IMG/VR virus record: IMGVR_UViG_3300013306_000002
Location: 18,647 to 82,646 of that record
Source: a virus
Reading direction: 5' to 3' (one strand)
Length of the DNA: 64,000 nt
Within the stretch, counting starts at the first letter, position 1. Each line of letters opens with the position of its first letter. The position numbers and the translations under genes were made by a program. Of this stretch, positions 1 to 64,000 are shown in pieces. A model generated the notes under the pieces. It was not told the origin of the DNA and did not search any database. It saw nothing but the letters and a program-made list of their open reading frames with translations.

Positions 1-137
1 TCTTCCAGACCGACCGGATCTGGACGCATGGCGCGACCCCGCTGCCGATTCGCGATGGGGTGTCGCTCAAGACCTCGCTTACGATTCCGGTCGACAACAT
101 CGCGGGCATGGTTCCCCAGCCGTTCCTGGAGCGCTAG
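1..137 (+). CDS. Partial hypothetical protein (3' end)
   Basis: Open frame from the window edge (FQTDRIWTHG...PFLER*) ending TAG at 135-137, just before the next ATG. Confidence 0.5.
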   Translation, partial: FQTDRIWTHGATPLPIRDGVSLKTSLTIPVDNIAGMVPQPFLER

Positions 138-140
138 GTA

Positions 141-893
141 ATGCTGGAGGCGACCGAAGTCATCATCCTGGCCCATGGCGCCGAGCGTCGCATGGGTGGC
201 CAGCAAGGCCCCCGCCAGCTCTTGCCGCTGCCCACGTGCGGTGGTGCGCCGATCCTATCGAGGACGCTGCGGCAACTGAGCGTGCTCTGGCCACAGGTCA
301 CCGCCACCGTGGTGGCGCCAATGGCTATCACGGACATGTTGTTCTCGCGCTGCCAGTGGCCGATCTATACCGTCTGTTTCGAGTTGCCGGCGCCCGGAAA
401 CTCGGCCCTGAAAGGCTTTGCTCGCTACCTCGAGCTCCGTGAGACTCAGGGGCGCCGATACCAGCGCACCATCGTGCTCCTGGGGGATGTGGTGTACTCC
501 TGGGACTGCCTACAGCAGATCTGGGAGATGTCCGCGGACTACGGGTTCGTCGGCACCCGAAACCTCTCGCTGTCGAAAGGCGACCTCTGGGGCGCTGGAT
601 GGTCAAGGCCGTACGAGGACTGGATGATGACCAAGTTGCGTGACGCCTTACTTCGGCATCCGCCGTTCGATGACGATCCCGAGCCGAGTCAACTCCGACG
701 CTGGATCAGCGGCATGCAGCGCGGGGATCTCGCGGACCATATCGCGAAACTGCGATGGGCGTCCCACTACGCATACGTGGACGACTACACGCACGACATC
801 GACATCCCGCACGATCTGGTGCTCCTACCCGATCTGTCCACGCTTGCGGCCGAGGACGATGCCAAGCACGGCGTGATCTGGACCAACCCGTGA
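141..893 (+). CDS. Nucleotidyltransferase-like (NTP_transferase / GT-A fold) protein
   Basis: VIILAHGAERRMGG..PRQLLPL...PILSRTLRQL resembles the GxGxRl..PK signature; LLGDVVY. Confidence 0.7.
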   Translation: MLEATEVIILAHGAERRMGGQQGPRQLLPLPTCGGAPILSRTLRQLSVLWPQVTATVVAPMAITDMLFSRCQWPIYTVCFELPAPGNSALKGFARYLELRETQGRRYQRTIVLLGDVVYSWDCLQQIWEMSADYGFVGTRNLSLSKGDLWGAGWSRPYEDWMMTKLRDALLRHPPFDDDPEPSQLRRWISGMQRGDLADHIAKLRWASHYAYVDDYTHDIDIPHDLVLLPDLSTLAAEDDAKHGVIWTNP

Positions 894-969
894 CTTGGCA
901 GATCTGGGCCGCCATCATCGGCTGTTTCATCGTCATCTGGGGCTGGCGGGATGCCAGTGGAAAGTCACC

Positions 970-1224
970 GTGAAGATCACGCAGCGCATCGACCGGGTTC
1001 TGTGGCCGTACTTGCGGAGCGGCCGGGTCTGCGCGACCCTGATGGTCGCCTATTTTCTAGGCAACGGCGTCATGGCGCTGCTCATGAAGCCGCTGTGGCT
1101 CGTGACGGTCTGCGACGTAGTAGCGCTGGCATTCGCCATGACATCCGTCGGGTCACGTCACAGGTACGTGCTATGGCGAGATTCACTCACTCGCGCGAGC
1201 CAGCGCAGGAGGATGTCGCAATGA
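970..1224 (+). CDS. Small membrane protein
   Basis: Two hydrophobic segments; GTGA overlap start. Confidence 0.45.
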   Translation: MKITQRIDRVLWPYLRSGRVCATLMVAYFLGNGVMALLMKPLWLVTVCDVVALAFAMTSVGSRHRYVLWRDSLTRASQRRRMSQ

Positions 1225-1667
1225 TCAACATCGTCACGGATCTGCTCGGCAAGCGAGTCACCGTCAGCATGTGGATGACCAAGGGCTCCGCGCGGGATGC
1301 CGATGGCGACATGGTCCGCCTCATCACTGGGATCGTTCGCGCGATCGGGTCGGGCCCCGACTGCTTCATGATCCTGGTGCAGACCGAGATCGCCCACAAG
1401 GGGACCCGCAAGGTCGGCGCGCTCACCATGTTCTCCATCGGCCCCAGGGGCGGAGTGGAGGTGGTGCCAGAGATCGAGCCCCCTGGAATGCTTCAGTACC
1501 GCGGATTGGGGGCTCGCCTGCGCAAGATCAGGGCGGGCAAGGCCACCGGAGACGAGGAGCAAGTCGTCCTGGATGCGATGGAGCAGCTCTGGTGGACACT
1601 ATCCCAGGACGAGCGGGATGCGCTCGACAAGGAGGAGCCGACCTCCGATCCGCCCGGGGGCCCATGA
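1221..1667 (+). CDS. Hypothetical protein
   Basis: AGGAGG RBS; ATGA overlaps at both ends. Confidence 0.6.
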   Translation: MINIVTDLLGKRVTVSMWMTKGSARDADGDMVRLITGIVRAIGSGPDCFMILVQTEIAHKGTRKVGALTMFSIGPRGGVEVVPEIEPPGMLQYRGLGARLRKIRAGKATGDEEQVVLDAMEQLWWTLSQDERDALDKEEPTSDPPGGP

Positions 1668-2656
1668 CGATCTGCCGCCCCATGATCGATCCTACGATCT
1701 CCGCGCACTACACGGGCGATGTCCGCGCGCTACTCAAGCGACTCCCCGACCGCTGCGTACAGACCTGCGTGACCTCGCCGCCCTACTGGGGACTTCGCTC
1801 GTACCTCGATGACGACGATCCGATGAAGGAGTTCGAGATCGGACTTGAGGGCACCCCGGAGGAATACGTGGCGGTCATGGTGGAGGTGTTCGAGAAAGTG
1901 CGCAGGGTGCTACGGGATGACGGGGCGCTGTGGCTCAACATGGGGGACTGCTACGTCACGAACCCTCGCGGACCGGGAGGCGCCGAGCAGTCGACTCTCG
2001 AGGGGACCAGCAACGCCAAGCGGAGAGCGAAGGGGTCGGTGGACCCAAAGAACCTGCGCAAGTATGGTCACCAGGGCGCCCTCAAGCACAAGGACCTCGT
2101 CGGCATCCCCTGGATGGCCGCGTTCGCGCTGCGCGCCGATGGCTGGTACCTCCGCAGCGAGGTCATCTGGCACAAGCCGTCACCGATGCCCGAGTCGGTC
2201 ACGGACCGGCCGACGAAGGCGCACGAGCAGATCTTCCTGCTGAGCAAGAGCGCGTCGTACTTCTACGACGCGGACGCGATCGCGGAGCCTGCCGTACGCG
2301 GTGCAGCCGGATCGCGCTTCGATACCGGGAAGACCGCCGAACATCAACTCCGGCGCTCGTCATCGCGTGAGCGAGATGAGGTTGACATCCGCAACAAGCG
2401 CTCGGTCTGGACCGTCGCATCGCAGCCCTACGCCGGCGCCCACTTCGCCACCTTCCCGCCCGATCTGATCGAGCCCTGCATCCTGGCCTGCTCTCGCCCC
2501 GGTGACCTCGTGCTGGATCCGTTCTTCGGGTCGGGCACCACGGGTCAGGTCGCAGAGAAGCACGAGCGGCTGTGGATCGGCTTCGACATCAACCCCAAGT
2601 ACGCTGAGCTCGCCAAGGAACGAACGGCACAACGCAGCTTGCCACTATCAAGATAG
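1664..2656 (+). CDS. DNA methyltransferase, N4-cytosine/N6-adenine (beta class, N6_N4_Mtase)
   Basis: VTSPPYW catalytic motif, LWLNMGD, IWHKPSPMPES, HFATFP, VLDPFFGSGTT SAM motif. Confidence 0.95.
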   Translation: MTICRPMIDPTISAHYTGDVRALLKRLPDRCVQTCVTSPPYWGLRSYLDDDDPMKEFEIGLEGTPEEYVAVMVEVFEKVRRVLRDDGALWLNMGDCYVTNPRGPGGAEQSTLEGTSNAKRRAKGSVDPKNLRKYGHQGALKHKDLVGIPWMAAFALRADGWYLRSEVIWHKPSPMPESVTDRPTKAHEQIFLLSKSASYFYDADAIAEPAVRGAAGSRFDTGKTAEHQLRRSSSRERDEVDIRNKRSVWTVASQPYAGAHFATFPPDLIEPCILACSRPGDLVLDPFFGSGTTGQVAEKHERLWIGFDINPKYAELAKERTAQRSLPLSR

Positions 2657-2669
2657 AAGGGAACTCTTC

Positions 2670-3137
2670 ATGAGAATTCTCGCGCTCGCACTCTGCATCG
2701 CCGCCTGCGTCAACGACGCTGCCACCGGAACATCCCGAGATCCGCTGTTGTTCGCCTCGGGGCCCAAGGCCTTCGAGGTGCTGGCCATGGCGCCGACGCT
2801 GCGCGGAATGGACCATCGCGCGATCGACTGCGGCGCGCCGGTCTCGGAGGCGGGGATTCTGACGTGCTCGCTGCTGGTGGCGTGCGCCCTGCCGATCGAT
2901 GTCTCCCTGGTGTCCGGCGGCATCGAATTCCCGGGTGACGCCGAACTCTTCACGAAGTGCCTGATGACAGTGTCCGCCGCGGAGATCTACGTGGCGTGGC
3001 TCATGGGACGACAACTCAGTCCGCGCGACCTCGCCCCGGCGTATAACAAGCTCAAGGGTCTGTTCTCTACGCGGATCGAGAAAGAGACCGCCAAAAGGGC
3101 GTACCTGCCGGCGCCTTCGTGGACGTCGCACGGGTGA
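2670..3137 (+). CDS. Putative lipoprotein
   Basis: MRILALALCIAAC signal with lipobox. Confidence 0.55.
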   Translation: MRILALALCIAACVNDAATGTSRDPLLFASGPKAFEVLAMAPTLRGMDHRAIDCGAPVSEAGILTCSLLVACALPIDVSLVSGGIEFPGDAELFTKCLMTVSAAEIYVAWLMGRQLSPRDLAPAYNKLKGLFSTRIEKETAKRAYLPAPSWTSHG

Positions 3138-3145
3138 GTGGACTC

Positions 3146-3995
3146 ATGGCCACGCGCAAGATCGAACAGGCGATGCTCCTGCCGCTCGGCGAGGATGCGA
3201 GCCTCCTGGACCACGTCAAGGATCTCCGTCCGCTCACCGATCTCGTCCTGCCGGATGAGCCCCGCGGCGCGCTGGATCGCATCCTGGCCGAGAATTACCG
3301 GGCTGCAGATCTGCAGGCGCGCGGCCTTCGCCCGGCCAACCGCCTCCTGTTCCGGGGGCCGCCCGGATGCGGCAAGACCGTGGCGGCCGGTGGCCTAGCG
3401 CTGGCGCTGGGTATTCCGCTGGTTGTTGTTCGGCTCGATGGCCTCATCGACCAGTACCTAGGGAACACCTCCAAGAACCTCCGCAAGGTGATCGACTTCG
3501 CCCACGCTCAGCGCGTGGTCCTGTTCCTGGATGAGGTGGACGCGATCGGGCGCGCGAGAAACGGCCGGCTTAATGACGTCGCGGAGATGAACCGCATCAC
3601 GAACTCGCTTTTGGTCATGCTCGAGGGGTTCGCGGTCCAGGCTCGCCCCTCCCCTTCCCTGCTGGTCGCCGCAACCAACCACCAGGACATGCTCGACGTG
3701 GCCATGGAGCGCCGGTTTGACCAGATCGTTCCCGAGGCCCACCGCCATCCAGGCAGCGGCGCTTCTGAAGCGGCTGGTAGAGCGCTACGACACCAGAACG
3801 ATTACCAAGCTGTCGCCGCCACCGTGGAAGGCATGGCCCAAACGACTGGCCGGGATGTCATTCGCGGACGTTGAGCGGCTGGCGCTTGACGCTGTCAAGT
3901 CGACCGCGATGGACGAGGCGCTAGGCATCGAACAGGCGCTGATTTCGGCGAAGACTACGCATAAGCGACGAGGGTCGCCGCGGGGACGGAGATGA
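3146..3995 (+). pseudogene. AAA+ ATPase (classic AAA clade), frameshifted near 3728
   Basis: GPPGCGKT Walker A, LFLDEVD Walker B, AATN sensor, RRFD arginine finger; the lid domain (FPRPT...GMSFADVERLALDAVK) continues in another frame (3717..3995). Confidence 0.8.
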
Positions 3996-4303
3996 CGGGA
4001 ATCGCCTGTCCCGTGTGCTCCGGGGATACCTACGTCCTTGAAACGAGGACCTGCGACGGACAGGTCCGGCGGCGTCGCGGTTGTGTCAACCGCCAGGGGT
4101 GCACCGGCCGGGTGACCACGGTGGAGATGGCGGTTCCCACATCGCGTCGAGGTCTCAAACTGCTGTCCGACATGGTCATCGCCCCAAAGCTACTCTTCGC
4201 GAAACTGCTGGAGTTGCAGTCCATGATCGCCGAGGTCCGCGGATGCATCTCCTTGGACCCAGCCATAGACGAAACGGCTCCAGAGACCGAGGCGCCACAA
4301 TGA
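3992..4303 (+). CDS. NrdR-like zinc-ribbon protein
   Basis: CPVC..DTYVLETR....VRRRRGC...C..RVTTVE. Confidence 0.75.
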   Translation: MTGIACPVCSGDTYVLETRTCDGQVRRRRGCVNRQGCTGRVTTVEMAVPTSRRGLKLLSDMVIAPKLLFAKLLELQSMIAEVRGCISLDPAIDETAPETEAPQ

Positions 4304-5541
4304 GCGCGCGCATCATCACGCTCCCGGCCGAGGCTGCCAAGATACTGATCGACAGCGGGCTGATGATCGTCGCCTCCGTGTCCGGCGGGAAGGACTCCAC
4401 CGCGCTGATCCTGGCGCTCTTGGAGGCCGTCGAGCGAGGCGAGATTCCACGCCACATGCTGCGGTTCGCGTTCGCCGACACCGGATGGGAGGCGCCCGAG
4501 ACCTACGCTTACCTGGACTACCTCCGCGAGAAGCTCGGCATCGAGATCGTGGTGGTGGGCGTGGAGGGCGGCATGCGCGCTCGCATCGCGCATCGTGCCG
4601 GATTCCCCGGCCGGATGCAGCGCTGGTGCACGCGCGAGCTCAAGATTGAGCCGCTGCGTGCCTACCATGACAGGTTGATCGAAGAGACCGGAATGGAGAC
4701 GGTGAGTGCCATGGGCATCCGGGCCGCCGAGAGCGAGTCCAGGGCCAAGATGGCGGAGTGGGAGGACGAGCCCGAAGGTCAGCGCTCGTGGGGCGGCTAC
4801 GTGTGGCGCCCTCTGCTGCAATGGACCATCGAGGACGTGCTCACCATTCACAACCGCCACGGCGTGAAGGTCAACCCGCTCTACCAGCGGGGCCACAACC
4901 GCGTCGGGTGCTACCCGTGCATCTTCGCCAGCAAGGAGGAGATCGCGCTCATCGCCGAGCATGCTCCCGACCGCATTGATGAGATCCGCCGACTCGAGGC
5001 GGACATGACAGCACTTCGAGCACAGCGAAACGAGGAGCGACCGGGGCGCTATACGCACGAAGCATCGTTCTTTCAAACCCAGCGCCAGGGGTTCACCGGA
5101 ATCGATGCGGTGGTGAAGTGGGCACGCACTGACCATGGTGGCAAGCAGTACGCGCTGTTCGCGCTACCCCCGCAGGGCGGATGCATGCGGTGGGGGATCT
5201 GCGACATGCCGGATGCCGAGGTAAGTCAGGAGCACCGAGACTGGGCTCAGGCCGCCGAGATCGTCATGGCGGAGCGCCCGGATCCGCTGGCGGTGAACCG
5301 GGCGGTCAGCGAGAACCCCGTCGAGGTCGCCCAGGCGTCCGAGGCGATCCGCGAGAAGCGCCGCGGCGAGCTCGATGACGAAGCAGATCCGGGGCGACCA
5401 TTCGTATGCGCCGTCTGTGGCTGGGAACAAGATTCCGATGTGCGGTGCTGTGGTCGGAGTACGTGTGGCTCGCCGCGCGTGGTCGCGATCTCGTTCGTCG
5501 AAAAAATATTTGGCCCTAACTGGCGAAGGAACTTCGAGTGA
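4300..5541 (+). CDS. PAPS-reductase family (PP-loop) protein with C-terminal Cys-rich extension
   Basis: SVSGGKDS, FADTGWE, RWCTRELK, GIRAAES..RA, RPLLQWT, NPLY..G..RVGCYPC. Confidence 0.92.
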   Translation: MSARIITLPAEAAKILIDSGLMIVASVSGGKDSTALILALLEAVERGEIPRHMLRFAFADTGWEAPETYAYLDYLREKLGIEIVVVGVEGGMRARIAHRAGFPGRMQRWCTRELKIEPLRAYHDRLIEETGMETVSAMGIRAAESESRAKMAEWEDEPEGQRSWGGYVWRPLLQWTIEDVLTIHNRHGVKVNPLYQRGHNRVGCYPCIFASKEEIALIAEHAPDRIDEIRRLEADMTALRAQRNEERPGRYTHEASFFQTQRQGFTGIDAVVKWARTDHGGKQYALFALPPQGGCMRWGICDMPDAEVSQEHRDWAQAAEIVMAERPDPLAVNRAVSENPVEVAQASEAIREKRRGELDDEADPGRPFVCAVCGWEQDSDVRCCGRSTCGSPRVVAISFVEKIFGPNWRRNFE

Positions 5542-6104
5542 TGCGCTGGCGCGAGTCATGGCGAGCGGACCCCGCCGGGCGCCGTATCGCCGACAACCAC
5601 TACAACCGCCAGAAGGTGGGCGCCAACCAGTTCGTGCCGCCCGGCCGGTGCGTGGTGCTGGTCATCCACGACCACCAGGTGGACGCCGCAGCGCTGTGGG
5701 TGACCTCGTGGCCGTTCGGCGAGTACGTGAAGCACGCATGGCCCGGTACCTGGGTGTGCTCAGCGTTCCGCAACCAGCGGCGTGACCTCTTCCTGTCCTC
5801 GGACCTGATCGTCGAGGCGCTGGCAGCGACGAGGTTCTACTGGGAGCCGCCGCCTGAGGGCATCATCACGTTCATCGACCCGTCCAAGACCAAGCACAAG
5901 CGGGATCCCGGGCGCTGCTTCCTGAAGGCGGGATTCCACGTGTCCGGGAAGGCCCCTGCCGGGGGCACCATGCGCCCTGTGTGCATCTGCGATGGTAAGC
6001 CCCCCCGGACGGCGGGCGGCCTCGTAGCGCTCCACATGGCCACGTCGAGGTTGCCAGCGGAATGCTCACCGCTGGGGGCGCAGGCGAGCCTGGGGCTTGG
6101 CTGA
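5538..6104 (+). CDS. Mom/GNAT-like putative DNA-modifying acyltransferase
   Basis: ADNHYNRQKVG..QFVPPGRCVVL, CSAFRN, SSDLI..A, ITFID, PGRCFLKAGF resemble phage Mom-like GNAT proteins. Confidence 0.55.
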   Translation: MMRWRESWRADPAGRRIADNHYNRQKVGANQFVPPGRCVVLVIHDHQVDAAALWVTSWPFGEYVKHAWPGTWVCSAFRNQRRDLFLSSDLIVEALAATRFYWEPPPEGIITFIDPSKTKHKRDPGRCFLKAGFHVSGKAPAGGTMRPVCICDGKPPRTAGGLVALHMATSRLPAECSPLGAQASLGLG

Positions 6105-6762
6105 ATCGAACAAGGAGATCGCGATGCAAACGACCGACGGCATTGTTCACATCCATCATGAGGCGGACTGGTCATCCACGGCGCTGGTGTCATGGCAACC
6201 GCCGGGAGTTGACCCAAGAGAAGTCTCCGTGGAGGCAGAGTTGCTGTGGGGCGACAACCACGGCCTGAGCCCAGATCTTCGGCTCCCTGCGCCTGTTCAT
6301 GTCAGGGCAGTTCGACTGGCGACTCGAGGTCGCGCGCAGTGGGAGCACGATCAGGTGCTGTCGCGTCCCGTTCCCGGGCGGGTGATGGTTCCGTGGTCCG
6401 CGCGCGACACGGAGAAGCGGCACGACCCGACCGATGCATGGCTGTTCGATATCGCCCTCGCGAATGACAGTTCCGGTCCCAGGGCGCCACGCCGGCGGAT
6501 CCCCGTGGGGTGGGTGGAGAACGTCGCGATCGCGATGTTCAACAACGGCCTCACCTCCAAGCCGTCCTCGGTCCTCGTCGACATCGGAGCGCCTCGCCGT
6601 GACCCCTGCACCTGCGGGAAGGCGTTCCATGACGGCGGGTGTCCGCAGGACGAGGTCTTCCCCAGGATCGGGCGACTCGCCATCAACCTGCAGCGAATCG
6701 ACAGGTTCATCGAGACGATGCAGGCGGCGAAGACTTCGACGGAACGGATCTTCGTCCCATGA
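6097..6762 (+). CDS. Hypothetical protein
   Basis: ORF in a coupled operon; AAGGAG upstream of an internal ATG. Confidence 0.5.
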   Translation: MAESNKEIAMQTTDGIVHIHHEADWSSTALVSWQPPGVDPREVSVEAELLWGDNHGLSPDLRLPAPVHVRAVRLATRGRAQWEHDQVLSRPVPGRVMVPWSARDTEKRHDPTDAWLFDIALANDSSGPRAPRRRIPVGWVENVAIAMFNNGLTSKPSSVLVDIGAPRRDPCTCGKAFHDGGCPQDEVFPRIGRLAINLQRIDRFIETMQAAKTSTERIFVP

Positions 6763-7941: not shown

Positions 7942-7946
7942 TCCCC

Positions 7947-8673: not shown

Positions 8674-8676
8674 GCC

Positions 8677-57175: not shown

Positions 57176-58881
57176 AGGGCCGCGCAGGCGTCGCCGCGAC
57201 CGCGGAAGATGCGGATGCGGAGCCCGACCAGCCAGCGGCGGCGTCCACGGATGATGCGCCCAAGGAGCCAGCGGCGGTCGCGGAGGAGGCGTCCAAGAAG
57301 ACCGAGCCACAGCGCGAGAAACTCTCCCCGACGATGCGGAAGATCCGCGATGAGGAGGAGCAGTCGCTCAAGGCCTGGCTCGAGACCATCGGCACCCAGG
57401 GAGCATTCAAAGTTCAACTCCGGCGGACCGAGCCGGCCACCTGCTGGGACATCCGCAAGAACGACAACGTCAAGGTGAAGGGCTACCTTGGCACCTTCGA
57501 CCACACCATCGACGAGGCGTTCATCGCGCGCGAGTACGGCGGCGGCACCTTCGCGCTGCGGGTGACGAGGCAGGGCGCCGATGGAAGCTTTCAGTACGAG
57601 AAGGGGCTCCACCGGACGATCGAGATCGCTGGCGAGCCCAGGACCGACCGACTTCCTTCGAACGCGCCGCAACCGCCCCCGCAAGCACCCCCGAACCACG
57701 GTGAGAGCGGCACCGTCGTCCAGCACGCGCTCGATATGATGGAGCGCATGGTCAGCAAGCAGGGAGCGCACGAGCCCAAGGGGATCGACCCGGCCATGGC
57801 GATGCTGGTCGAGCAGATGAGGGAGTCGCAGCGCACCCAAGCCAAGGAGATGGCGGATCTCCGCGCCGAACTCTCAGCCGCGCGCAACCAGAAGCCGCCC
57901 GAGGATCCGTTCCGGGACCGGATGCTCGACAAGCTGATCGATGGCGACTCGGCGCGCGTCACCGCGCTCCGCACGCAGCACGACAGCGAGATCCGCATGC
58001 TCAAGGAGGGCCACCAGCAGGAGATCCGTCTGCTTGAGGATCGCCACGACCGCTCCATGAAGCAGATGCAGCAGAGCCACGAGCTCATGCTGGCGAACAT
58101 GAAGGCCAGCTATGAGCGCGAGATTGCCGCCTTAAACACCGCGCACCAAGTGGCTGCGACGGCGACCTCGACCACAAAGGATGTCACCGTCACGACGCTC
58201 AACGCCGAGCTCCGCCGCATGGACGCCGAGCTCGCCGCGTTGCGCGCCGAGAACAAGGAACTCCGCGAGCGCAAGGACAAGTCCGTGATCGAGCAGATAA
58301 AGGACATGAACGTGCTCAAGGAGGCGCTGGGCGGTGACGGGGACGGGGACGGGTCGACCATCAAGGAGGCCATCGCGATGGTCCCGGCGGCCATCGAAGG
58401 CATCGGCGCCATCGTTGCCAGCCGGTCGGCGGCGCAGCAGCAACCGCAGCAAGTCCAGGGTCGCGCCACGGCGCAGGCCCAGCAACAGCGACCGCGGGTG
58501 GTCGCGGCGCCGAACGGGGAGCGCCTGATGCAGGTCGGCAACAGGCTCGTCCCGGTCAAGCCCAAGCCCAAGGTGGTGACCACGGACGCTGGCGAGACCA
58601 TCGAGATCCCCAAGATCGAGGATCCCACCATCAAGCTCATCATCTCCCAACTCGAGGCGGCGTTCGGTCGAGACGAAGACCCCAACATCGTGGCCCAGTC
58701 CGCCAAGGCTATGATTCCGCCCGACATCCTGGCATGGATCCGCCAGCACCACACCGAGCAGGTGGCGGGCGTTGACCTGTTCATGCAGAAGGTGGCAAAG
58801 TTGCCGGGCACCTCGCCCCTGGCAACGCAGGGGGGGCGCAACTGGTTACGCAAGGTCGGGGCAGCCCTCATCGGAGAGTGA
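57172..58881 (+). CDS. Long coiled-coil protein
   Basis: 569 aa with extended heptad region; YGGGTF N-domain. Confidence 0.8.
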   Translation: MKGRAGVAATAEDADAEPDQPAAASTDDAPKEPAAVAEEASKKTEPQREKLSPTMRKIRDEEEQSLKAWLETIGTQGAFKVQLRRTEPATCWDIRKNDNVKVKGYLGTFDHTIDEAFIAREYGGGTFALRVTRQGADGSFQYEKGLHRTIEIAGEPRTDRLPSNAPQPPPQAPPNHGESGTVVQHALDMMERMVSKQGAHEPKGIDPAMAMLVEQMRESQRTQAKEMADLRAELSAARNQKPPEDPFRDRMLDKLIDGDSARVTALRTQHDSEIRMLKEGHQQEIRLLEDRHDRSMKQMQQSHELMLANMKASYEREIAALNTAHQVAATATSTTKDVTVTTLNAELRRMDAELAALRAENKELRERKDKSVIEQIKDMNVLKEALGGDGDGDGSTIKEAIAMVPAAIEGIGAIVASRSAAQQQPQQVQGRATAQAQQQRPRVVAAPNGERLMQVGNRLVPVKPKPKVVTTDAGETIEIPKIEDPTIKLIISQLEAAFGRDEDPNIVAQSAKAMIPPDILAWIRQHHTEQVAGVDLFMQKVAKLPGTSPLATQGGRNWLRKVGAALIGE

Positions 58882-58882
58882 C

Positions 58883-59404
58883 ATGACAGCGGAAAGTTTC
58901 CTGGATGTCTACCTCGCCGCGCTGCTCGCTGGAATCACGCTCTGGGCGTTCGTGTTCACGGTCTACAAGCCGATATCCGAGTACCTGATGCGGCGGAACG
59001 GATGGAAGCAAACGGCCCCAGACGAGTGGACCTACTCGGACGATGATGTGCCCGACCGGGGGATCGTGACCGAGGCACCAGCGCGCTCGCATCGGATCTG
59101 GGCACGCAGGGGGCATGCTCATGCTGGCGGTCGCCTGCAGGTGTTTGTGGACATTCCAGGTATCGGGTGGAAGGTCGTATTCGACGAACCCTGGCCTCTC
59201 GGCGCGTGCAACATCGAGTGCCTCTGGAATGGCGATCTCACGAAGCTGAAGCTCGCGCAGAATGGCCCTGCCCTCACACTGGAGGAACTGTCGGAGGATC
59301 CGCGAACGAGAGGGAATGGCAGCGTAAGCATGCATTGGGACGGCCCTGGGACGGCCCCGCGCTATCAAAGCGGTGGAATGGAGGCCGGACGCGGACAACG
59401 CTGA
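58883..59404 (+). CDS. Membrane protein
   Basis: N-terminal TM (VYLAALLAGITLWAFVFTVY). Confidence 0.5.
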   Translation: MTAESFLDVYLAALLAGITLWAFVFTVYKPISEYLMRRNGWKQTAPDEWTYSDDDVPDRGIVTEAPARSHRIWARRGHAHAGGRLQVFVDIPGIGWKVVFDEPWPLGACNIECLWNGDLTKLKLAQNGPALTLEELSEDPRTRGNGSVSMHWDGPGTAPRYQSGGMEAGRGQR

Positions 59405-59478
59405 TTCCACGCCGGAATCTCTCGATATCGAGTAGAATCGGCGGGTCGCCTCTCATCTTTTCCGGGTGAAGGCAATGC

Positions 59479-60096
59479 TTGCACCGAGCCCCCCATAGCC
59501 TGACGGTCTCGCCGCTCCAGCCGATATCCGGCCTGGGGTACGGTGGATCGCGCCTGTTCTGGATGCCGGATGAGCCACCCACCAGTCTTTGTGGCTACCT
59601 CGGGGCACCGCAGACGATCAGCGTGATGCGTCAGGCGGCGCTCGACGACGCCAGCCACTTCGAGACACGCCAGCTTGCCGAGGCGGTGTGTGAGGGCCTC
59701 GACTCGAAGGACTACTGCTCCGAGTATATGGCGCTCTACTACTGCCTGCTCCAGCGGACGCGCTACATGCGCGACCCCCGGCGCACCGAGCTCGTCCGGG
59801 CACCCTACATCATCAGCCGCCAGATCCTGGCCGGCCACCGGCCCTCGATTGATTGCGACGATGGAGCCCTGTGGCTCGCCGCAGCGATCCTCTCAGTAGG
59901 GGGCCAGCCAGACTTCATCACCTGCGCCTTCAAGCGCATGTACTACGATGGGCGCATCCAGCACAGCCATGTGTTCACCCGGGCGCTCGAGCCCCGGAAT
60001 CGGACCCGCATCGTGCTGGATCCGGTCGCCGCCGAGAAGACCCCACAGATGCTACGCCGTATCGTCGATGCCTCCGTCTGGCCGGTCGCGGCCTAA
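59479..60096 (+). CDS. Transglutaminase-like cysteine protease
   Basis: RYMRDP..TELV..P, IDCDD (Cys), HSHVF (His), VLDP (Asp). Confidence 0.85.
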   Translation: MHRAPHSLTVSPLQPISGLGYGGSRLFWMPDEPPTSLCGYLGAPQTISVMRQAALDDASHFETRQLAEAVCEGLDSKDYCSEYMALYYCLLQRTRYMRDPRRTELVRAPYIISRQILAGHRPSIDCDDGALWLAAAILSVGGQPDFITCAFKRMYYDGRIQHSHVFTRALEPRNRTRIVLDPVAAEKTPQMLRRIVDASVWPVAA

Positions 60097-60110
60097 CCCA
60101 AGGAATCAAG

Positions 60111-61922
60111 ATGGCCTACAACCTTCCACCAGCCTGGGATGCAGGGTTCGCGCTCCCCAAGAACGTCCGCGACGAGGGCCTGCAGCGCCGCGCGTTCGTC
60201 ACCAAGCAGATGCCGCGCGGCACGTACGACGACTCGACCGACGGGACGGCCGGTTACAACGTCCCGCAGTACATCAAGGACGAGGGCACTGGCCAGGGCG
60301 CGTTCACCACGTTCTGGCAACCGCGCGGCACGTACAACGGCGGCAAGGTTCCGCACTGGCTGAACAAGCGACCGACCGTCACCGGCGTGATCCCGCTTCC
60401 CGGCGGCGGCCAGCAGATCACCATGCAACCAGCGGGCATGGGCGACGACGCGCCGATGGGCGAGCCGTTCGACACCTACGGCCAGAAGGCGGCGCAACTC
60501 ATCATCTCGAGGTTTCAGACTGTTCCCCAGCCCCAGCGCCAGAAGGCGATGCGAGCCTTCCTGGATTCCGTCGACAAGAGCCTGTGGACCCGGACCACGG
60601 ACATCTTCAACCGCTACGTGCAGCAGCAGAAGATCCCCCCGGCCAACGCCTTTCCGCTGGCGCTGGCACGCGCACTTTCCACTGGCATCACGGCCGAGAT
60701 CATCGCGACGGGCCTCCGACGTACGGCGCCCCAGGCCAACTCGCTCCTGGGCCTGGGGTGCTATGGCTGTGCAGCCTTTCTGGGAGCGATGGGGGATGAC
60801 ACCGCCGGATGTCAGGCGGCGCCCGCCGGATACACGTGGATCTATGGAGCCACAGTGAACGGCCAAGCCATCCCCGGCCACTGGGCGAAGGCGGCGGCGG
60901 GGCAACCTGTGCAGGCGTTCTGCTTGACGCCGCCGCCTGGAGCCATCACGGCCGCCACCATCGCGGCGACCGGGACGACCGAAGTGAGAGACCACGGGGC
61001 TGGCTATGACTGGTTCGTCGGTCCGTTTGGGTTCAACTCGAGCACCTTCAAGCCCCGCGTGTGGGGCATCGGGGCCCCCTCCGCGACCATCGCGAACCGG
61101 GCTGCGCCACCGGACATCATGTACTTGACCCCCGGGGATCTCCCGGCGACCCCCCAGCTCGCCTACGTCCGGCCCATGATCCCCGAGGTGCTGGCGTGGC
61201 TGAAGGCGCGACTGACCGAGGCCAAGGACTCAAGCGGCAACGGCGACACTCCGACGACGTATGTCGATATGGCCGGCAACCGCCAAGCGTCGAGCTACAT
61301 GTTCGATGGCAACGGCAATCTCTCGCAGGGCCAAGCAGACGACGCCAAGATGTGGTTCGATGCGATGGGCATCCAGCCGGGTACGCCGGTCCGACTTCAC
61401 ACGCTCTGGAACCTGAAAACCGGCGGCGCGCCCATGGCCAGGACGACCCACATCAAGACGGGCGCCAACATGGCACTGGCGGTGTCACTGGCGCCGATGG
61501 ATCTCACCAGGGGAGACTGGTCCAAGGCCAATCCGCTCGTGCTCAAGGTCTGGCTCTCGTCGGTCCCCGATCCGAACATTTTCGGCGCTCTCTGGAATCC
61601 GATGATCCTGATCAACCCCCTGACCGCCCTGCAGGCCATCGCCTCGGTGACGGCGGGCATCGCGCCGATCCTGGGGAATCTCGCCTGCGACGTCCTCGGC
61701 AACCCCGCAGCTGGCGCAGCCGCCGGGGCTGCGGCTGCGGCGTACGGAATCCCGCCGCAGGCCGGCACCGCTGGCGTCGCTCTGGCAGCGTCGCAATGCG
61801 GGCAGCCGCCACCACCGCCACCCGTGGTGGCTGCAAAGCGCTCCGTCTGGCCGTGGGTGCTGGGGGGTGGCGCGGTCGTCGTGGCGGCGCTGCTAACCAA
61901 GCCCAGGAGGGCAACGCCATGA
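60111..61922 (+). CDS. Large virion protein with C-terminal membrane anchor
   Basis: AAGGA RBS; ends WPWVLGGGAVVVAALL-TKPRR. Confidence 0.75.
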   Translation: MAYNLPPAWDAGFALPKNVRDEGLQRRAFVTKQMPRGTYDDSTDGTAGYNVPQYIKDEGTGQGAFTTFWQPRGTYNGGKVPHWLNKRPTVTGVIPLPGGGQQITMQPAGMGDDAPMGEPFDTYGQKAAQLIISRFQTVPQPQRQKAMRAFLDSVDKSLWTRTTDIFNRYVQQQKIPPANAFPLALARALSTGITAEIIATGLRRTAPQANSLLGLGCYGCAAFLGAMGDDTAGCQAAPAGYTWIYGATVNGQAIPGHWAKAAAGQPVQAFCLTPPPGAITAATIAATGTTEVRDHGAGYDWFVGPFGFNSSTFKPRVWGIGAPSATIANRAAPPDIMYLTPGDLPATPQLAYVRPMIPEVLAWLKARLTEAKDSSGNGDTPTTYVDMAGNRQASSYMFDGNGNLSQGQADDAKMWFDAMGIQPGTPVRLHTLWNLKTGGAPMARTTHIKTGANMALAVSLAPMDLTRGDWSKANPLVLKVWLSSVPDPNIFGALWNPMILINPLTALQAIASVTAGIAPILGNLACDVLGNPAAGAAAGAAAAAYGIPPQAGTAGVALAASQCGQPPPPPPVVAAKRSVWPWVLGGGAVVVAALLTKPRRATP

Positions 61923-62383
61923 AGCAGACTTCTCGCGATCTCCTGAGCGCCATCGGCATGGGGCAGCACAACGCCACGCAGGCGATCCCGTACCTGATGA
62001 TTGCGCCCGCGACCACGGACCCCAAAACGCCGATGGTCATCAACATGGTCCGCCACGTCCAGCAGCAGCTCTACCAAATGGGGGCGACCGACGTGGCCAA
62101 CAGTGGCTACCTGGATGCGCCGACCGCTGCGGCGCTGCTGCAGATCGCTGGACCCGACTGGGAGCGGATGTCGTGGGCCCAGAACATCCAGGCGGTCCTG
62201 GGTGCTCGCGACCGCGGGATGAGCCTCTCGCCGCCCCCGCCCGCCCGGTCCGCCGCGCCTATGCCAGCGGCGGTCAGCGGCCCCTTGGACTTCCTGCCCG
62301 ACGTCCCCGGCGGTATCGTCACCTACGGCGTGGCGTTCTACCTGCTCTACCGTCACTTCACCAAGCCAAGGAGCGCGCGATGA
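61919..62383 (+). CDS. PG-binding-like protein with C-terminal TM
   Basis: VRHVQQQL..MG.....SGYLDAPTAAAL; TM plus basic tail. Confidence 0.65.
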   Translation: MKQTSRDLLSAIGMGQHNATQAIPYLMIAPATTDPKTPMVINMVRHVQQQLYQMGATDVANSGYLDAPTAAALLQIAGPDWERMSWAQNIQAVLGARDRGMSLSPPPPARSAAPMPAAVSGPLDFLPDVPGGIVTYGVAFYLLYRHFTKPRSAR

Positions 62384-63084
62384 CCTACCTCGTGAGGAGG
62401 CGACCCGGGATGGGCGACTTCATGACCGATTCGAACCCGTTCTGGTCGGGCGACAACACGGGCCTAGTCGACTTCATGACCGGCACGAGCGCGGTCACCG
62501 CGGATGCCGCGCCCGCCTCCGACAACGTGAACCAGACGGCGACGGGAACCACGACCAGCGCCGCCGACTTCACCGTGGTCAGCGGCGTATGCAAGCCCAT
62601 GAACTTCCCGGCGCTGGCGACCGTGCGCGCGTTTCAGGCGCAGCTCAACCGCGTCGCGCAGGCCAAGGGGTTCTCCAAGATCGCCGCCGATGGGGCCGTT
62701 GGGCCCGCGACGATGGCGCTGTTCAAGAAGGTCCAGGCTGCAGCGCCGCGCGGCCAGATCATGGGGGATGCCTCCACCTGCATCAACATCTCCGCGGATG
62801 TCGACGTGCTGGGGCAGCAGATCCAGGTGTTCGCCGACGCGCTGGGTGCACCGGCCACGGTGGGCGCCTCGCCCTCGCTGTCGCCGCCCAGCATCACGAC
62901 CAAGAGCGGAGCCACGGTGGTGGCACCGGATGCTGGCATCCTAGGGTCGCTGGCCACGCTGTCGGGCACCGAGAAGCTGGCGCTCCTGGGGGTCGCCGGC
63001 GGGCTGGGTTACATGCTGCTCAAGAAAAAGCCCAGGGTGCACCAGACGGTGCGCTACACGCGGCGAACCACACGGAGGCGGTAA
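62380..63084 (+). CDS. Peptidoglycan-binding domain protein with C-terminal TM
   Basis: VRAFQAQLN....IAADGAVGPAT; TM followed by KKKPR...RRTTRRR. Confidence 0.75.
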   Translation: MTYLVRRRPGMGDFMTDSNPFWSGDNTGLVDFMTGTSAVTADAAPASDNVNQTATGTTTSAADFTVVSGVCKPMNFPALATVRAFQAQLNRVAQAKGFSKIAADGAVGPATMALFKKVQAAAPRGQIMGDASTCINISADVDVLGQQIQVFADALGAPATVGASPSLSPPSITTKSGATVVAPDAGILGSLATLSGTEKLALLGVAGGLGYMLLKKKPRVHQTVRYTRRTTRRR

Positions 63085-63323
63085 TGTACCTACCCATGGG
63101 CGATGCGGCGCCGGTCGCGCCCCCGAGATCAAGCATCCACGACATCGTCGCCTCGGAGGGCGTGAGCACGGCCGCGACCATCGCGCTGACCTACCACGGG
63201 TACAAGCGGACGGGTTCGCTCGTCTGGGCGCTGATCTACGGCATGGCCGGGCGGTGGTTCCCGGTGGTGGCGGTGCCGGTGTCGCTCGCACAGGGGTTCG
63301 GCGAAAGGAAGCCCTGCCCATGA
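63084..63323 (+). CDS. Small virion membrane protein
   Basis: YHGYKRTGSLVWALIYG...PVSLAQGFG; TAATG coupling. Confidence 0.7.
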   Translation: MYLPMGDAAPVAPPRSSIHDIVASEGVSTAATIALTYHGYKRTGSLVWALIYGMAGRWFPVVAVPVSLAQGFGERKPCP

Positions 63324-63712
63324 GGCATACGTACGGCTACACCTACCGCGGGGGCCCGCTCATTCGCTGGGGCCACGGGTCGCCAGTTCAGGCCAAGGCG
63401 GCGGACGCCCAGTCACTGGGGTCGCTCGAAGAGTCGACGCTGTCCACGCCGACCCTATACGGGTCCAGCATCCTGCCGGCGCCCGGCGCCCCCGAGCCGA
63501 TCGGCGTGTCCAACCAGCGCATGCAGGCCATGGGGGACACCCAGGTCTACGAGGCGATGGGCGGATGCAGCTGCAGCGGGACCTGTGGATGTGGAACGCC
63601 CGCCGCGGCGACCGGCGCGCTGTCGGGGTTCGCGGACGCGGTGCCCGGCGGCTGGGTCACGCTGGGCGTGGGAACGCTCCTATTGTGGCACTTCATGAAG
63701 AGGCGGAGGTAG
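63320..63712 (+). CDS. Small virion membrane protein
   Basis: C-terminal TM followed by KRRR; ATGA coupling. Confidence 0.65.
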   Translation: MRHTYGYTYRGGPLIRWGHGSPVQAKAADAQSLGSLEESTLSTPTLYGSSILPAPGAPEPIGVSNQRMQAMGDTQVYEAMGGCSCSGTCGCGTPAAATGALSGFADAVPGGWVTLGVGTLLLWHFMKRRR

Positions 63713-63819
63713 TGATGCAGCGGTCGTTCATCACCGTCCACAACTGGCGTCTCTGTGCGTATGTCGCGTCATCATGGGGGGCGCGCTGGAGGATTAAGGG
63801 AGCGCGAGCCTGAACTCTC

Positions 63820-64000
63820 ATGCGCTACTCGGTCTACGACTACAATCGGCACGCCTTCGACTACTACGAGGCCCCGGGCGTCGGCGGAACCCACGCCGGA
63901 TCGCCGCCCGTCCCTCGAGCGGTGGGCGAAATCGGCACGCCGGCTGAGCGCGCAGCCTGGAAACTGCCGGCCTCCGCCCGGAAGGTCGGCACCGGCTTCC
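63820..64000 (+). CDS. Partial putative virion protein
   Basis: MRYSVYDYNRHAFDYYEA..., open to the window end. Confidence 0.55.
   Translation, partial: MRYSVYDYNRHAFDYYEAPGVGGTHAGSPPVPRAVGEIGTPAERAAWKLPASARKVGTGF

What the first reader, a model, noticed from the sequence alone, without database searches (positions are those of the whole stretch)
1..64000. Large tailless, membrane-containing virus with plasmid-like maintenance, likely infecting a myxobacterium
Seen: 64 kb of continuous viral-type genes with no terminase, portal, HK97 capsid or tail. Present instead are a transglutaminase-like gene, about eight small-to-large proteins with TM helices and basic tails, a TM-anchored transglycosylase, beta-helix spikes and a capsid-like beta protein. 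Established: TM-rich virion genes and a virion transglycosylase typify internal-membrane viruses such as PRD1, whose characterised genomes are much smaller. Inference: this is an unusually large tailless virus whose accessory genome resembles that of tailed phages. The initiator with origin, ParB and a centrally placed Tyr recombinase with viral genes on both sides suggest an episomal prophage. Sigma54 promoters and Cys-rich lipoproteins point to Myxococcota.
Basis: partly seen in the sequence, partly recalled or inferred. Interest (0 to 1): 0.85.

Follow-up and report, generated by a model that had tools for sequence, protein, structure and literature searches.

The report
Large tailless jelly-roll membrane virus
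The window is three quarters of a complete, circular 82.5-kb soil virus genome with no tailed-phage hallmark gene and no DNA-packaging motor. It probably builds a jelly-roll protein shell and a protein-rich membrane around DNA condensed by a protamine-like protein; the proposed myxobacterial host is not supported.

Summary
Observation confirmed. The window is bases 18647-82646 of an 82,646-bp IMG/VR virus record with a 123-bp end overlap, rated 100% complete by CheckV. Pfam and PHROGs scans of all 129 called proteins found no terminase, portal, HK97 capsid or tail gene. Six-frame scans with two terminase, one portal and one capsid profile also found none. This includes the 18.6 kb outside the window.

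Five complete relatives (76-86 kb) share this module. Four of them have no P-loop ATPase candidate at all. So a tailless jelly-roll membrane virus with motor-free DNA condensation is the best reading, closest to Portogloboviridae and Helvetiavirae rather than PRD1.

A ParB-like protein, a short tyrosine recombinase and a conserved repeat array fit a circular plasmid-like replicon. Lysogeny is not shown. Sigma-54 promoters are not enriched, and the host is unknown.

This scan already found the same virus family on at least a dozen other genomes. No paper describing it was found.

The parts
55884..64000 (+). Start of the conserved virion (late) operon. It runs off the window end, across the contig junction, and continues through genome 1 to about 16,600 (L001).
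   Evidence: All genes are on the + strand. Order and sequence are conserved in five complete relatives. No Pfam or PHROG function was found.
57172..58881 (+). 569-aa core protein with a long central coiled coil. Candidate scaffold or size-determining protein (inferred).
   Evidence: Present in all 5 relatives at 28-45% identity. Sequence read. Only coiled-coil noise in Pfam.
59563..60096 (+). Transglutaminase-fold Cys-His-Asp enzyme. Candidate virion maturation protease.
   Evidence: Among the most conserved core genes (53-75% in 5 relatives). Atlas score 0.97 to PF01841 clusters. The family HMM hits SSIP-1 virion protein gp34 at 26.8 bits, including the DCD motif.
60111..61922 (+). 603-aa tail-anchored membrane protein of the virion operon.
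   Evidence: C-terminal TM helix plus basic tail. Found in all 5 relatives.
61919..63712 (+). Four small proteins (154, 234, 79 and 130 aa). Three end in a TM helix followed by a basic tail.
   Evidence: Sequences. Conserved in 4 of 5 relatives.
63820..64000 (+). 5' part of a 96-aa tail-anchored ORF that continues across the contig's end overlap.
   Evidence: The joined ORF was read on the circularised sequence. It is contiguous in the relatives, which shows that the contig ends are arbitrary cuts of a circular map.
15323..16069 (-). Diverged paralog (248 aa, with an insertion) of the family's most conserved small beta protein at genome 4134-4709. Candidate vertex or second small capsid protein.
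   Evidence: blastp 38% identity, E 9e-16. Family-to-family hhalign 99.5%, E 3.5e-23. Orthologs in all 5 relatives.
16121..17114 (-). Two membrane proteins. One is a tail-anchored protein with an MYF...LGD leader. The other is a paralog of the membrane domain of the arginine-rich core protein, without the Arg tract.
   Evidence: Conserved in 4-5 relatives.
13929..14285 (-). 118-aa domain that also forms the N-terminal part of the ice-binding-domain protein at genome 12841-13830.
   Evidence: blastp 45% identity over 106 aa. Ice_binding Pfam 4.4e-64 on the longer paralog.
19992..20573 (+). Small spike-like protein carrying the shared N-terminal anchor of about 100 aa.
   Evidence: 42-44% identity to the N-termini of the two proteins below.
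21273..23027 (-). 584-aa spike-like protein with the shared anchor. Its head domain is unassigned.
   Evidence: No Pfam hit.
23153..26602 (-). 1149-aa pectate-lyase-like beta-helix protein with the shared anchor. Candidate receptor-binding depolymerase.
   Evidence: Pect-lyase 1.5e-9 and Beta_helix 5e-6. Tail-spike PHROG 1.8e-9. These hits are assigned to this gene by elimination.
33303..34391 (-). 362-aa conserved protein of unknown family with a DNA repeat array inside the gene at 33614-33721. Candidate initiator plus origin, or a centromere.
   Evidence: Repeats GTATCCGATAC x2-3 and TCCCGGA x3-4 are kept in 3 of the 4 relatives that carry the gene. Third-codon invariance there is 0.38-0.43 against 0.15 overall. 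No Pfam or PDB match.
35823..36671 (+). 282-aa tyrosine recombinase, about the length of XerC/XerD.
   Evidence: Pfam Phage_integrase 3.7e-14. 55-65% identity in 4 relatives.
37836..39441 (-). Three conserved proteins (118, 261 and 155 aa), two of them beta-rich, next to the wall enzyme. Candidate further virion proteins.
   Evidence: Conserved in 4-5 relatives. No family match. No similarity to the jelly-roll family.
39444..40175 (-). Tail-anchored, lytic-transglycosylase-like protein.
   Evidence: SLT E 0.065, below the cut-off. Invariant H42-E43-S44-G46 and a C-terminal TM helix. Found in all 5 relatives at 44-73%.
41966..43396 (-). 476-aa ParB-like protein with acidic N-terminal and basic C-terminal regions.
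   Evidence: The family profile hits Thermus Spo0J 1vz0 at E 0.0016 over the N-terminal and HTH domains. GxRR motif. Found in all 5 relatives.
141..13820 (+). Variable accessory block: N6/N4 methyltransferase, AAA ATPase, PAPS reductase and others.
   Evidence: Pfam hits. Mostly absent from relatives.
44464..55490 (-). Variable accessory block including a 1069-aa SNF2-type helicase at 48962-52171.
   Evidence: Pfam and PHROG helicase hits. Most genes, including the helicase, have no homolog in the five relatives.

Best explanation
This is a complete circular dsDNA genome of about 82.5 kb. It belongs to an uncultured soil bacterial virus that builds a tailless particle.

Proposed particle:
- A shell made of two unrelated small jelly-roll proteins (genome 4134-4709 and 4840-5481), plus a paralog of the first (window 15323-16069).
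- A membrane studded with about 20 tail-anchored viral proteins, including M23 and transglycosylase-like wall enzymes.
- Vertex spikes with exchangeable heads on a shared anchor.

Proposed packaging: the DNA is not pumped in by a motor. It is condensed by an arginine-rich protein (335 aa, net +136) whose C-terminal half is a membrane-binding domain, and it is enclosed as the membrane and shell assemble. A transglutaminase-fold cysteine enzyme in the operon may trim precursors.

Proposed maintenance: the genome replicates with host enzymes as a circular, plasmid-like replicon. A ParB-like protein, a short Xer-like recombinase and a conserved repeat array serve its upkeep.

SHOWN: gene content, conservation across relatives, the circular map, the jelly-roll model and the absence of motor genes.
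INFERRED: the particle shape, the position of the membrane, condensation, proteolysis and the lifestyle.
For: 1. NO TAILED-PHAGE GENES AND NO MOTOR.
- No terminase, portal, HK97 capsid or tail family among all 129 proteins or in six frames.
- The only canonical Walker A motifs are an accessory AAA protein, an accessory SNF2 helicase and one non-conserved chance motif.
- Relatives G001-G004 (76-86 kb) have no convincing P-loop candidate at all. A scan for the canonical motif gave only three incidental matches.

2. A CONSERVED TRIO SITS IN EVERY RELATIVE.
- Arg-rich protein (94-103 Arg per copy; 116 R + 27 K in ours), then a 191-aa protein, then a 213-aa protein.
- The 191-aa protein is the most conserved gene of the family (47-99% identity, 648 homologs).

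3. FOLD EVIDENCE.
- The 213-aa protein models at pLDDT 94 as a long helix plus a beta sandwich.
- Foldseek top hits are the HHIV-2, SH1 and P23-77 VP17 capsid proteins.

4. VIRION-LIKE GENE SET. About 20 tail-anchored proteins, a membrane-anchored M23 peptidase and an SLT-like enzyme, and spikes with a shared anchor.

5. LINK TO A CULTURED PHAGE. The transglutaminase-like gene is homologous to a virion protein of SSIP-1, a cultured tailless membrane phage.

6. GENOME FORM. Six genomes of 76-86 kb all have end overlaps, cut at different places in the gene order.

7. PRECEDENT. SPV1 and FLiP are accepted icosahedral membrane viruses without a packaging ATPase (PMC8812541).
Against: - No particle, lipid or protein data exist for any member.
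- A helix followed by a jelly roll also fits trimeric fibre heads.
- The 191-aa model has low confidence.
- There is no sequence-level link between the capsid candidates and any solved or cultured capsid protein.
- Beta-helix depolymerases are typical of tailed phages.
- Folds of only two of 129 proteins were predicted, so a cryptic HK97-fold protein cannot be formally excluded.
- An 82-kb genome is well beyond any cultured virus of this design.
- Enclosing 82 kb without a motor has no precedent.
Confidence: 0.6

Rival explanations
1. It is a virus, but not an icosahedral one with an internal membrane. The protamine-condensed DNA is wrapped by an outer envelope derived from the host membrane, giving a pleomorphic or spherical enveloped particle. 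The small jelly-roll proteins would act as matrix, fusion or spike proteins rather than as a capsid lattice.
For: - About 20 tail-anchored membrane proteins and a core protein that binds both membrane and DNA.
- No packaging motor.
- The 213-aa protein has a 40-residue N-terminal helix in front of the jelly roll, as trimeric spikes do.
- Foldseek's top hits for the 191-aa model are PRD1 spike P5 and C1q/TNF heads.
Against: - The two small beta proteins are among the most conserved genes of the family. Spikes and receptor binders are usually the most variable.
- Separate, variable spike proteins with exchangeable heads already exist.
- The best structural matches of the high-confidence model are capsid lattice proteins.
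Confidence: 0.15
2. It is not a virus but a plasmid-like element. It may spread in membrane vesicles or stay vertical. Its conserved membrane and beta proteins would serve cell-surface functions, and the phage-like genes would be accessory cargo.
For: - A ParB-like protein, a Xer-like recombinase and a conserved repeat array.
- No capsid family recognised by sequence.
- A circular map.
- All copies seen are free unit-length contigs.
Against: - No ParA, relaxase or type IV secretion ATPase. There is no conserved P-loop protein at all.
- About 25 kb of co-oriented, conserved non-enzymatic genes with a protamine-like DNA binder next to jelly-roll proteins is a virion-module signature.
- Membrane-anchored wall hydrolases and depolymerase-like spikes imply entry from outside.
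- The transglutaminase-like gene has a homolog in SSIP-1 that is a virion protein.
Confidence: 0.13
3. It is a tailed phage whose terminase, portal, HK97 capsid and tail genes have diverged beyond recognition by sequence profiles.
For: - Circular assembly with an end overlap is also what headful-packaging phages give.
- A tail-spike PHROG and a pectate-lyase beta helix are present.
- The accessory genes are typical of tailed phages.
- IMG-based atlas clusters are auto-labelled Uroviricota.
Against: - The terminase large subunit is a P-loop ATPase and the best conserved phage gene.
- The conserved core holds no Walker A motif. Four relatives have no convincing P-loop candidate.
- No hit at E<=10 in six frames to the TerL, portal and HK97 profiles tried.
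- No tape-measure-sized gene lies in the conserved operon.
- The conserved operon is dominated by tail-anchored membrane proteins, which tailed-phage structural modules lack.
Confidence: 0.07

Closest known systems
Portogloboviridae (Sulfolobus polyhedral virus 1, SPV1; capsid proteins in PDB 6OJ0)
   Same: - No genome-packaging ATPase (PMC8812541).
- A circular dsDNA genome that, from my own knowledge, is condensed by a basic protein inside a membrane under an icosahedral shell.
   Different: - SPV1 has an archaeal hyperthermophile host and a genome of about 20 kb. This genome is 82.5 kb and shows bacterial features such as lipoboxes and peptidoglycan enzymes.
- No sequence similarity.
- Here there are two unrelated small beta proteins plus a paralog.
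- The DNA binder is a 335-aa Arg tract fused to a membrane domain.
- Here there are also a transglutaminase-like enzyme, about 20 tail-anchored proteins and beta-helix spikes.
Helvetiavirae (Sphaerolipoviridae, Simuloviridae, Matsushitaviridae: SH1, HHIV-2, HCIV-1, P23-77)
   Same: - Two adjacent genes for small capsid-type jelly-roll proteins, with an internal-membrane design.
   Different: - The FtsK-HerA packaging ATPase that accompanies the two capsid genes in that kingdom is absent here.
- Those genomes are 17-31 kb, from my own knowledge.
- No sequence similarity.
- The vertical orientation of the barrels cannot be tested here.
[quoted passage not shown]
   Same: - Bacterial host and circular dsDNA.
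- Described as having PRD1-type architecture with two capsid protein types (PMC6356626).
- Its virion protein gp34 is a homolog of the transglutaminase-like core gene (26.8 bits, DCD motif) and is also tail-anchored.
- Several of its virion proteins end in a TM helix plus a short tail.
   Different: - 43.8 kb and 57% GC.
- None of its proteins matches the capsid-candidate families here by hmmsearch or hhalign.
- SSIP-1 has a virion protein with a Walker A motif (gp40), which this family lacks.
- No long Arg-rich protein was seen among the SSIP-1 structural proteins inspected.
   Same: Tailless design with many small membrane proteins, a virion-associated transglycosylase and vertex spikes.
   Different: - PRD1 has one double jelly-roll capsid protein, an A32/FtsK-type packaging ATPase, a linear 15-kb genome with terminal proteins and its own protein-primed polymerase.
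- None of these was found here.
Adenovirus core proteins VII/mu and the adenovirus protease (functional analogy only)
   Same: - Arg-rich proteins that condense dsDNA inside a jelly-roll capsid.
- Precursors trimmed by a virion cysteine protease at Gly-containing sites.
- Here a G-L-G-D motif sits exactly at the boundary between the Arg tract and the membrane domain.
   Different: - No homology.
- Adenovirus still uses a packaging ATPase.
- Cleavage here is only inferred.

Membership tests
Caudoviricetes (tailed phages) | Terminase large subunit (P-loop ATPase plus nuclease) | tested here: not met
   - No hit in Pfam or PHROGs on 129 proteins.
- PF03237 and PF03354 in six frames gave nothing at E<=10.
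- No conserved Walker A motif in the core.
- Relatives G001-G004 have no convincing P-loop candidate.
Caudoviricetes (tailed phages) | Portal protein and HK97-fold major capsid protein | tested here: inconclusive
   No sequence-profile match. Folds of only two proteins were predicted, so a cryptic fold is not excluded.
Helvetiavirae | Two single jelly-roll major capsid proteins encoded side by side | tested here: inconclusive
   - Two adjacent small beta proteins.
- The other model has pLDDT 63.
- Lattice role and vertical orientation are not testable here.
Helvetiavirae | FtsK-HerA superfamily genome-packaging ATPase | tested here: not met
   No such family or motif in this genome or in four relatives.
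Portogloboviridae | Single jelly-roll capsid protein(s) and no packaging ATPase | tested here: inconclusive
   [not shown]
Portogloboviridae | Genome condensed by a basic nucleoprotein inside a membrane | not testable with these tools
   A conserved Arg-rich protein fused to a membrane domain lies directly upstream of the capsid candidates. Its function is inferred.
Tectiviridae / PRD1-like | Double jelly-roll capsid protein, A32-type ATPase, protein-primed DNA polymerase, linear genome with inverted terminal repeats | tested here: not met
   No polymerase or ATPase family was found. The map is circular with a direct end overlap. A double jelly-roll protein was not recognised by sequence profiles, and folds were not tested genome-wide.
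SSIP-1-like phages | Homologous virion proteins | tested here: inconclusive
   Only the transglutaminase-like protein matches (gp34, 26.8 bits). The capsid-candidate profiles find nothing in SSIP-1.
ParABS plasmid partition | ParB CTPase/HTH protein, ParA ATPase and a centromere | tested here: inconclusive
   - ParB-like: Spo0J at E 0.0016 with a family profile, but no Pfam hit.
- ParA: absent, because there is no Walker A protein.
- Candidate centromere or origin repeats lie at 33614-33721.
Temperate (integrating) phage | Integrase with an attachment site, and integrated copies in host genomes | tested here: inconclusive
   A recombinase is present but only 282 aa long. All six copies in species-representative genomes are unit-length or fragmentary contigs without host flanks.

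The most novel reading that the evidence does not exclude
This genome belongs to a widespread, undescribed high-rank lineage of bacterial viruses. Like Helvetiavirae it has two single jelly-roll capsid genes. Like Portogloboviridae it has no packaging ATPase. It encloses genomes of 76-86 kb (other members noted by this scan reach over 100 kb) by co-assembly of membrane and shell around DNA. That DNA would be condensed by a membrane-tethered protamine-like polyprotein, released by a virion transglutaminase-fold protease at [LM]G|D sites. It would be the missing bacterial intermediate in the proposed route from SPV1-like ancestors to Helvetiavirae, and the first large-genome case of motor-free encapsidation.
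Probability: 0.35. Interest if true: 0.88.

Novelty: new variant of a known kind. Interest (0 to 1): 0.75.

Why it matters
- PMC8812541 states that prokaryotic viruses with double jelly-roll capsids have genomes under 20 kb. From my own knowledge, the largest cultured tailless membrane-containing ones are about 31-44 kb.
- A common soil lineage at 76-86 kb would enlarge the size range of non-tailed prokaryotic viruses two- to four-fold. The conserved protein has 648 homologs in metagenomes. The lineage has jelly-roll capsid-type genes, no packaging motor and a protamine-like core.
- It would also give a testable case of how a large dsDNA genome is enclosed without ATP-driven pumping.
- It bears on the proposed origin of Helvetiavirae from a portoglobovirus-like ancestor by capsid-gene duplication and later gain of the ATPase (PMC8812541). 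This family would show the duplicated-gene state without the ATPase, and in bacteria.
- Virus-detection pipelines label these contigs as tailed phages (atlas clusters are labelled Uroviricota). That label is probably wrong.

Tried and rejected
- Only two structure predictions were allowed. So 38189-38974, 38974-39441, the 569-aa protein and the 603-aa protein were not folded.

HOST AND EXPRESSION.
- Sequencing-run search: the source is a rhizosphere metagenome, with partial shares in two other soil or rhizosphere runs. No isolate and no RNA holder is listed.
- Phylum sampling with the conserved-protein profile: Myxococcota gave 1 extra hit, a 7.6-kb fragment with no host flank. Gemmatimonadota, Actinomycetota and Chloroflexota gave 0 of 400 each. 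This is too few to name a host.
- Sigma-54 consensus: 1 site against 1.74 expected, and that site lies inside a gene. The looser GG-N10-GC form gave 13 against 18 +/- 4.5. Rejected as host evidence.

SIMILARITY SEARCHES THAT FOUND NOTHING USEFUL.
- Megablast of 24 kb against GenBank phages found only a 78-140-bp methylase stretch in Rhodobacter phages. Against plasmids it found nothing.
- tblastn of both capsid candidates against GenBank phages gave no match at E<=1.
- Profiles of both against PDB sequences gave only coiled-coil or chance hits.
- The two families show no similarity to each other.
- The 261- and 155-aa proteins show no similarity to the jelly-roll family.
- Atlas leads to PM2/PRD1 capsid-domain families (scores 0.76-0.78) did not hold: PF25513 gave no match. 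DUF7592 gave 14.7 bits, below its cut-off.
- The BFVD fold search gave only generic, mostly unnamed jelly-roll matches.
- SSIP-1 capsid-region proteins gave no match to any of five family profiles.

LITERATURE.
- Four searches found no description of this group.
- The original SSIP-1 paper is not held.

Full report
WHAT THE SEQUENCE IS. The window is bases 18647-82646 of a one-contig record of 82,646 bp. Its first 123 bp are repeated at its end. IMG/VR classes it as having direct terminal repeats, and CheckV estimates it as 100% complete. GC is 60-69% throughout and there is no tRNA. A codon-usage gene call gave 129 genes covering 88% of the contig. A 96-aa ORF runs across the end overlap. Its orthologs are uninterrupted in related genomes, whose contigs are cut at other places in the same gene order. 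The map is therefore circular, or circularly permuted, with a unit of 82,523 bp. The source is a rhizosphere metagenome.

CHECKING THE OBSERVATION. I scanned all 129 proteins against Pfam and PHROGs (plus 8, 10, 36, 68). No terminase, portal, HK97 capsid, tail, double jelly-roll capsid or A32-type ATPase family appeared. One of the six lists showed only the best 25 of 45 families. Six-frame scans of the whole contig with the terminase ATPase profiles PF03237 and PF03354, the HK97 capsid profile PF05065 and the portal profile PF04860 returned nothing even at E<=10. The same scans did ring in control genomes.

What is recognisable is an accessory set typical of phages:
- several DNA methyltransferases, PAPS reductase, DUF5131, GP88, RusA, NADAR and a nucleoside deoxyribosyltransferase;
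- an AAA protein, an SNF2 helicase and a dual-specificity phosphatase;
- a tyrosine recombinase, an M23 peptidase, an ice-binding-like domain and a pectate-lyase beta helix.

The per-item results are in the observation check.

THE CONSERVED MODULE AND ITS RELATIVES.
- The 191-aa protein (genome 4134-4709) has 648 homologs in metagenomes. The 120 listed are 70-99% identical, and their longest contigs cluster at 70-104 kb.
- Related IMG/VR contigs are mostly 75.6-86.4 kb.
- Six copies in species-representative genomes lie on 43-89-kb contigs binned to six different phyla.
- I fetched five complete relatives (75.6-86.4 kb, GC 63-68%, end overlaps of 32-125 bp) and compared all genes.

Core genes present in all five relatives:
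- the C-domain of the arginine-rich protein;
- the 191- and 213-aa proteins, and the paralog of the former (window 15323-16069);
- the 569-aa coiled-coil protein;
- the transglutaminase-like protein;
- the 603-aa tail-anchored protein;
- the SLT-like tail-anchored protein;
- a DnaJ-domain protein;
- the ParB-like protein;
- several small membrane proteins.

Genes present in four of five relatives: the 362-aa protein with internal repeats, a kinase-like protein, the recombinase, the phosphatase and the 118/261-aa pair. The methylases, the AAA protein and the SNF2 helicase are not shared.

NO MOTOR. In coding frames there are only three canonical Walker A motifs: the accessory AAA protein, the accessory helicase, and a non-conserved stretch in the 362-aa protein. 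A scan of relatives G001-G004 for the canonical motif gave only three incidental matches, and none is a convincing P-loop protein. G005 has one in a 955-aa ORF. A terminase or an FtsK-HerA packaging ATPase in the shared core is therefore very unlikely. There is also no ParA and no replicative helicase or polymerase.

FOLD EVIDENCE. The 213-aa protein has 53 representative relatives.
- From an alignment of 37 of them it models at pLDDT 94 as a 40-residue helix followed by a beta sandwich.
- Foldseek against the PDB ranks the HHIV-2, SH1 and P23-77 VP17 capsid proteins among the top hits (E 1.6e-3 to 1e-2, probability 0.98-0.99).
- Nucleoplasmin-type and other jelly rolls are within one Z unit, so this shows a jelly roll of the capsid type and not proven homology.

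THE CORE PROTEIN AND THE MEMBRANE PROTEINS. Directly upstream of the two beta proteins is a 548-aa ORF.
- Its first 335 residues hold 116 Arg and 27 Lys (net +136).
- Its last 213 residues are hydrophobic, then acidic and repeat-rich.
- A G-L-G-D motif lies at the boundary.
- Every relative has the same arrangement, with 94-103 Arg.
- About 1,200 copies would neutralise the whole genome.
- A paralog of the membrane domain without the Arg tract lies at window 16476-17114.

Around these genes about 20 proteins end in a TM helix and a short basic tail. Many begin with an M-x-Y...[LM]G[D] leader. That leader is the subject of other notes (e1-6053366, e1-6053381) and I did not test cleavage. The adjacent transglutaminase-like gene is supported by language-model features (0.97 to PF01841 clusters). 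It is also supported by a 26.8-bit profile match, including the catalytic-Cys motif, to gp34 of SSIP-1. The GenBank record marks gp34 as a structural protein, and gp34 is also tail-anchored.

MECHANISM PROPOSED. Everything in this paragraph is inferred.
- Late genes are expressed from the + strand operon.
- Tail-anchored proteins insert into the host membrane.
- The core protein tethers and condenses the circular genome on that membrane patch.
- The jelly-roll proteins polymerise over it, with the paralog or other beta proteins at the vertices and anchor-sharing spikes attached.
- The cysteine enzyme trims leaders and may free the Arg tract.
- The M23 and SLT-like enzymes, carried in the membrane, open the wall at entry or exit.

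This is the SPV1-type solution (no ATPase, nucleoprotein core), scaled up and in bacteria.

MAINTENANCE.
- The ParB-like protein gives Spo0J as its best PDB match with a family profile (E 0.0016), but no Pfam hit.
- The recombinase is 282 aa. By my own knowledge of lengths it resembles Xer resolvases more than arm-binding integrases.
- Inside the 362-aa gene lies an array of a near-palindromic 11-mer (2-3 copies) and a 7-mer (3-4 copies) after an AT-richer stretch. Three of the four relatives that carry the gene keep it at DNA level, with varying copy number. Third-codon invariance there is 0.38-0.43 against 0.15 for the whole gene.
- This array could be an origin inside an initiator gene, as in lambda O, or a centromere for the ParB-like protein.
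- No integrated copy, repressor or ParA was found. 'Episomal prophage' therefore remains a reasonable guess only.

HOST. Sigma-54 promoter matches are at or below chance. Three lipobox proteins say only 'bacterium'. Bin labels of relatives span six phyla, one of them Myxococcales. Sampling 400 genomes from each of four phyla with the family profile added one 7.6-kb fragment in Myxococcota and none elsewhere. I put Myxococcota at about 20-25%. High GC and a soil origin are all that is firm.

COMPARISON AND NOVELTY.
- The family fails the Caudoviricetes test (no terminase).
- It fails the Helvetiavirae test (no FtsK-HerA ATPase).
- It fails the PRD1 test.
- It resembles Portogloboviridae in design but not in host domain, genome size or sequence.
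- It shares one virion gene with the cultured phage SSIP-1. SSIP-1 is described as membrane-containing with two capsid protein types (PMC6356626). SSIP-1 has a Walker A virion protein and no detectable homolog of the capsid candidates.
- Four literature searches found no description of this group.

EARLIER WORK IN THIS SCAN. The scan has met the same family on at least a dozen other genomes. Earlier follow-up agents reached the same reading, among them e1-5345316, e1-5798506, e1-5923930 and e1-6021657. My analysis repeated the key tests on this genome. It adds the whole-genome core comparison, the lack of any convincing P-loop candidate in four relatives, the conserved repeat array, the ParB profile match, the direct SSIP-1 test and the negative host tests.

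LIMITS. No experiment exists for any member. Only two folds were predicted. Confidence in the tailless jelly-roll membrane virus reading is about 0.6. The main rivals are an enveloped non-icosahedral virus (0.15), a non-viral plasmid-like element (0.13) and a very divergent tailed phage (0.07).

Noticed in passing
L001:4017-4060 and L001:4760-4775 (genome coordinates, outside the window): The motif GAGTTCACGAG occurs twice just upstream of the 191-aa capsid-candidate gene, and a degenerate copy (GAGTTCGCCAC) lies downstream. GC-rich hairpins sit in unusually long spacers (150 and 131 bp) of an otherwise tightly packed operon. Earlier notes report the same motif around the orthologous gene in other genomes. 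It may set expression or transcript processing.
   Followed up: partly
window 55177-55263: A 24-bp unit (TCGTCGCAGATCTGCGAGCTAGGT) is repeated 3.6 times at 96% identity. It lies inside a Cys-rich acidic gene (54936-55490), next to the 394-bp divergent intergenic region where the two transcription arms part. It could be a protein repeat or a cis site.
   Followed up: no
window 42188-42253: A 33-bp direct repeat (2 copies, 94-97% identity) lies inside the ParB-like gene. It encodes the duplicated 'SGPDKxAPAAA' stretch of the basic C-terminal region.
   Followed up: no
relatives G001-G004 (L019-L036): Four complete genomes of 76-86 kb contain no convincing P-loop NTPase candidate. A scan for the canonical Walker A motif gave only three incidental matches. 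This is unusual for replicons of this size.
   Followed up: partly
window 35040-35801, 37389-37832, 40256-40729, 45301-45924: A protein-kinase-like protein and a dual-specificity phosphatase are conserved in the close relatives. One DnaJ-domain protein (40256-40729) is conserved in all five relatives, and a second (45301-45924) matches in one. This hints at manipulation of host signalling and chaperones.
   Followed up: no
L001:12841-13830 and window 13929-14285: A complete ice-binding-like (DUF3494) beta-solenoid domain (Pfam 4.4e-64) lies inside a protein whose N-terminal 105 residues match a stand-alone 118-aa paralog. The two look like a loaded and an empty version of a display scaffold.
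   Followed up: partly
L001:3330-3345 (genome coordinates): The motif G-L-G-D sits exactly at the junction of the Arg tract and the membrane domain of the core protein. It matches the [LM]G|D motif that ends the shared N-terminal leaders of the membrane proteins.
   Followed up: partly
window 43614-44931: My gene call is poor here: low-scoring ORFs overlap on both strands. A 78-140-bp stretch at about 43625-43765 is 82-94% identical to a methylase gene of Rhodobacter phages.
   Followed up: no
L045 (SSIP-1, JN880423) 24775-25737: The SSIP-1 structural protein gp40 carries a Walker A motif (GEKGSGKS). It is followed by a basic, tail-anchored protein (gp41). This is a possible packaging ATPase with no counterpart in the family studied here.
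   Followed up: partly
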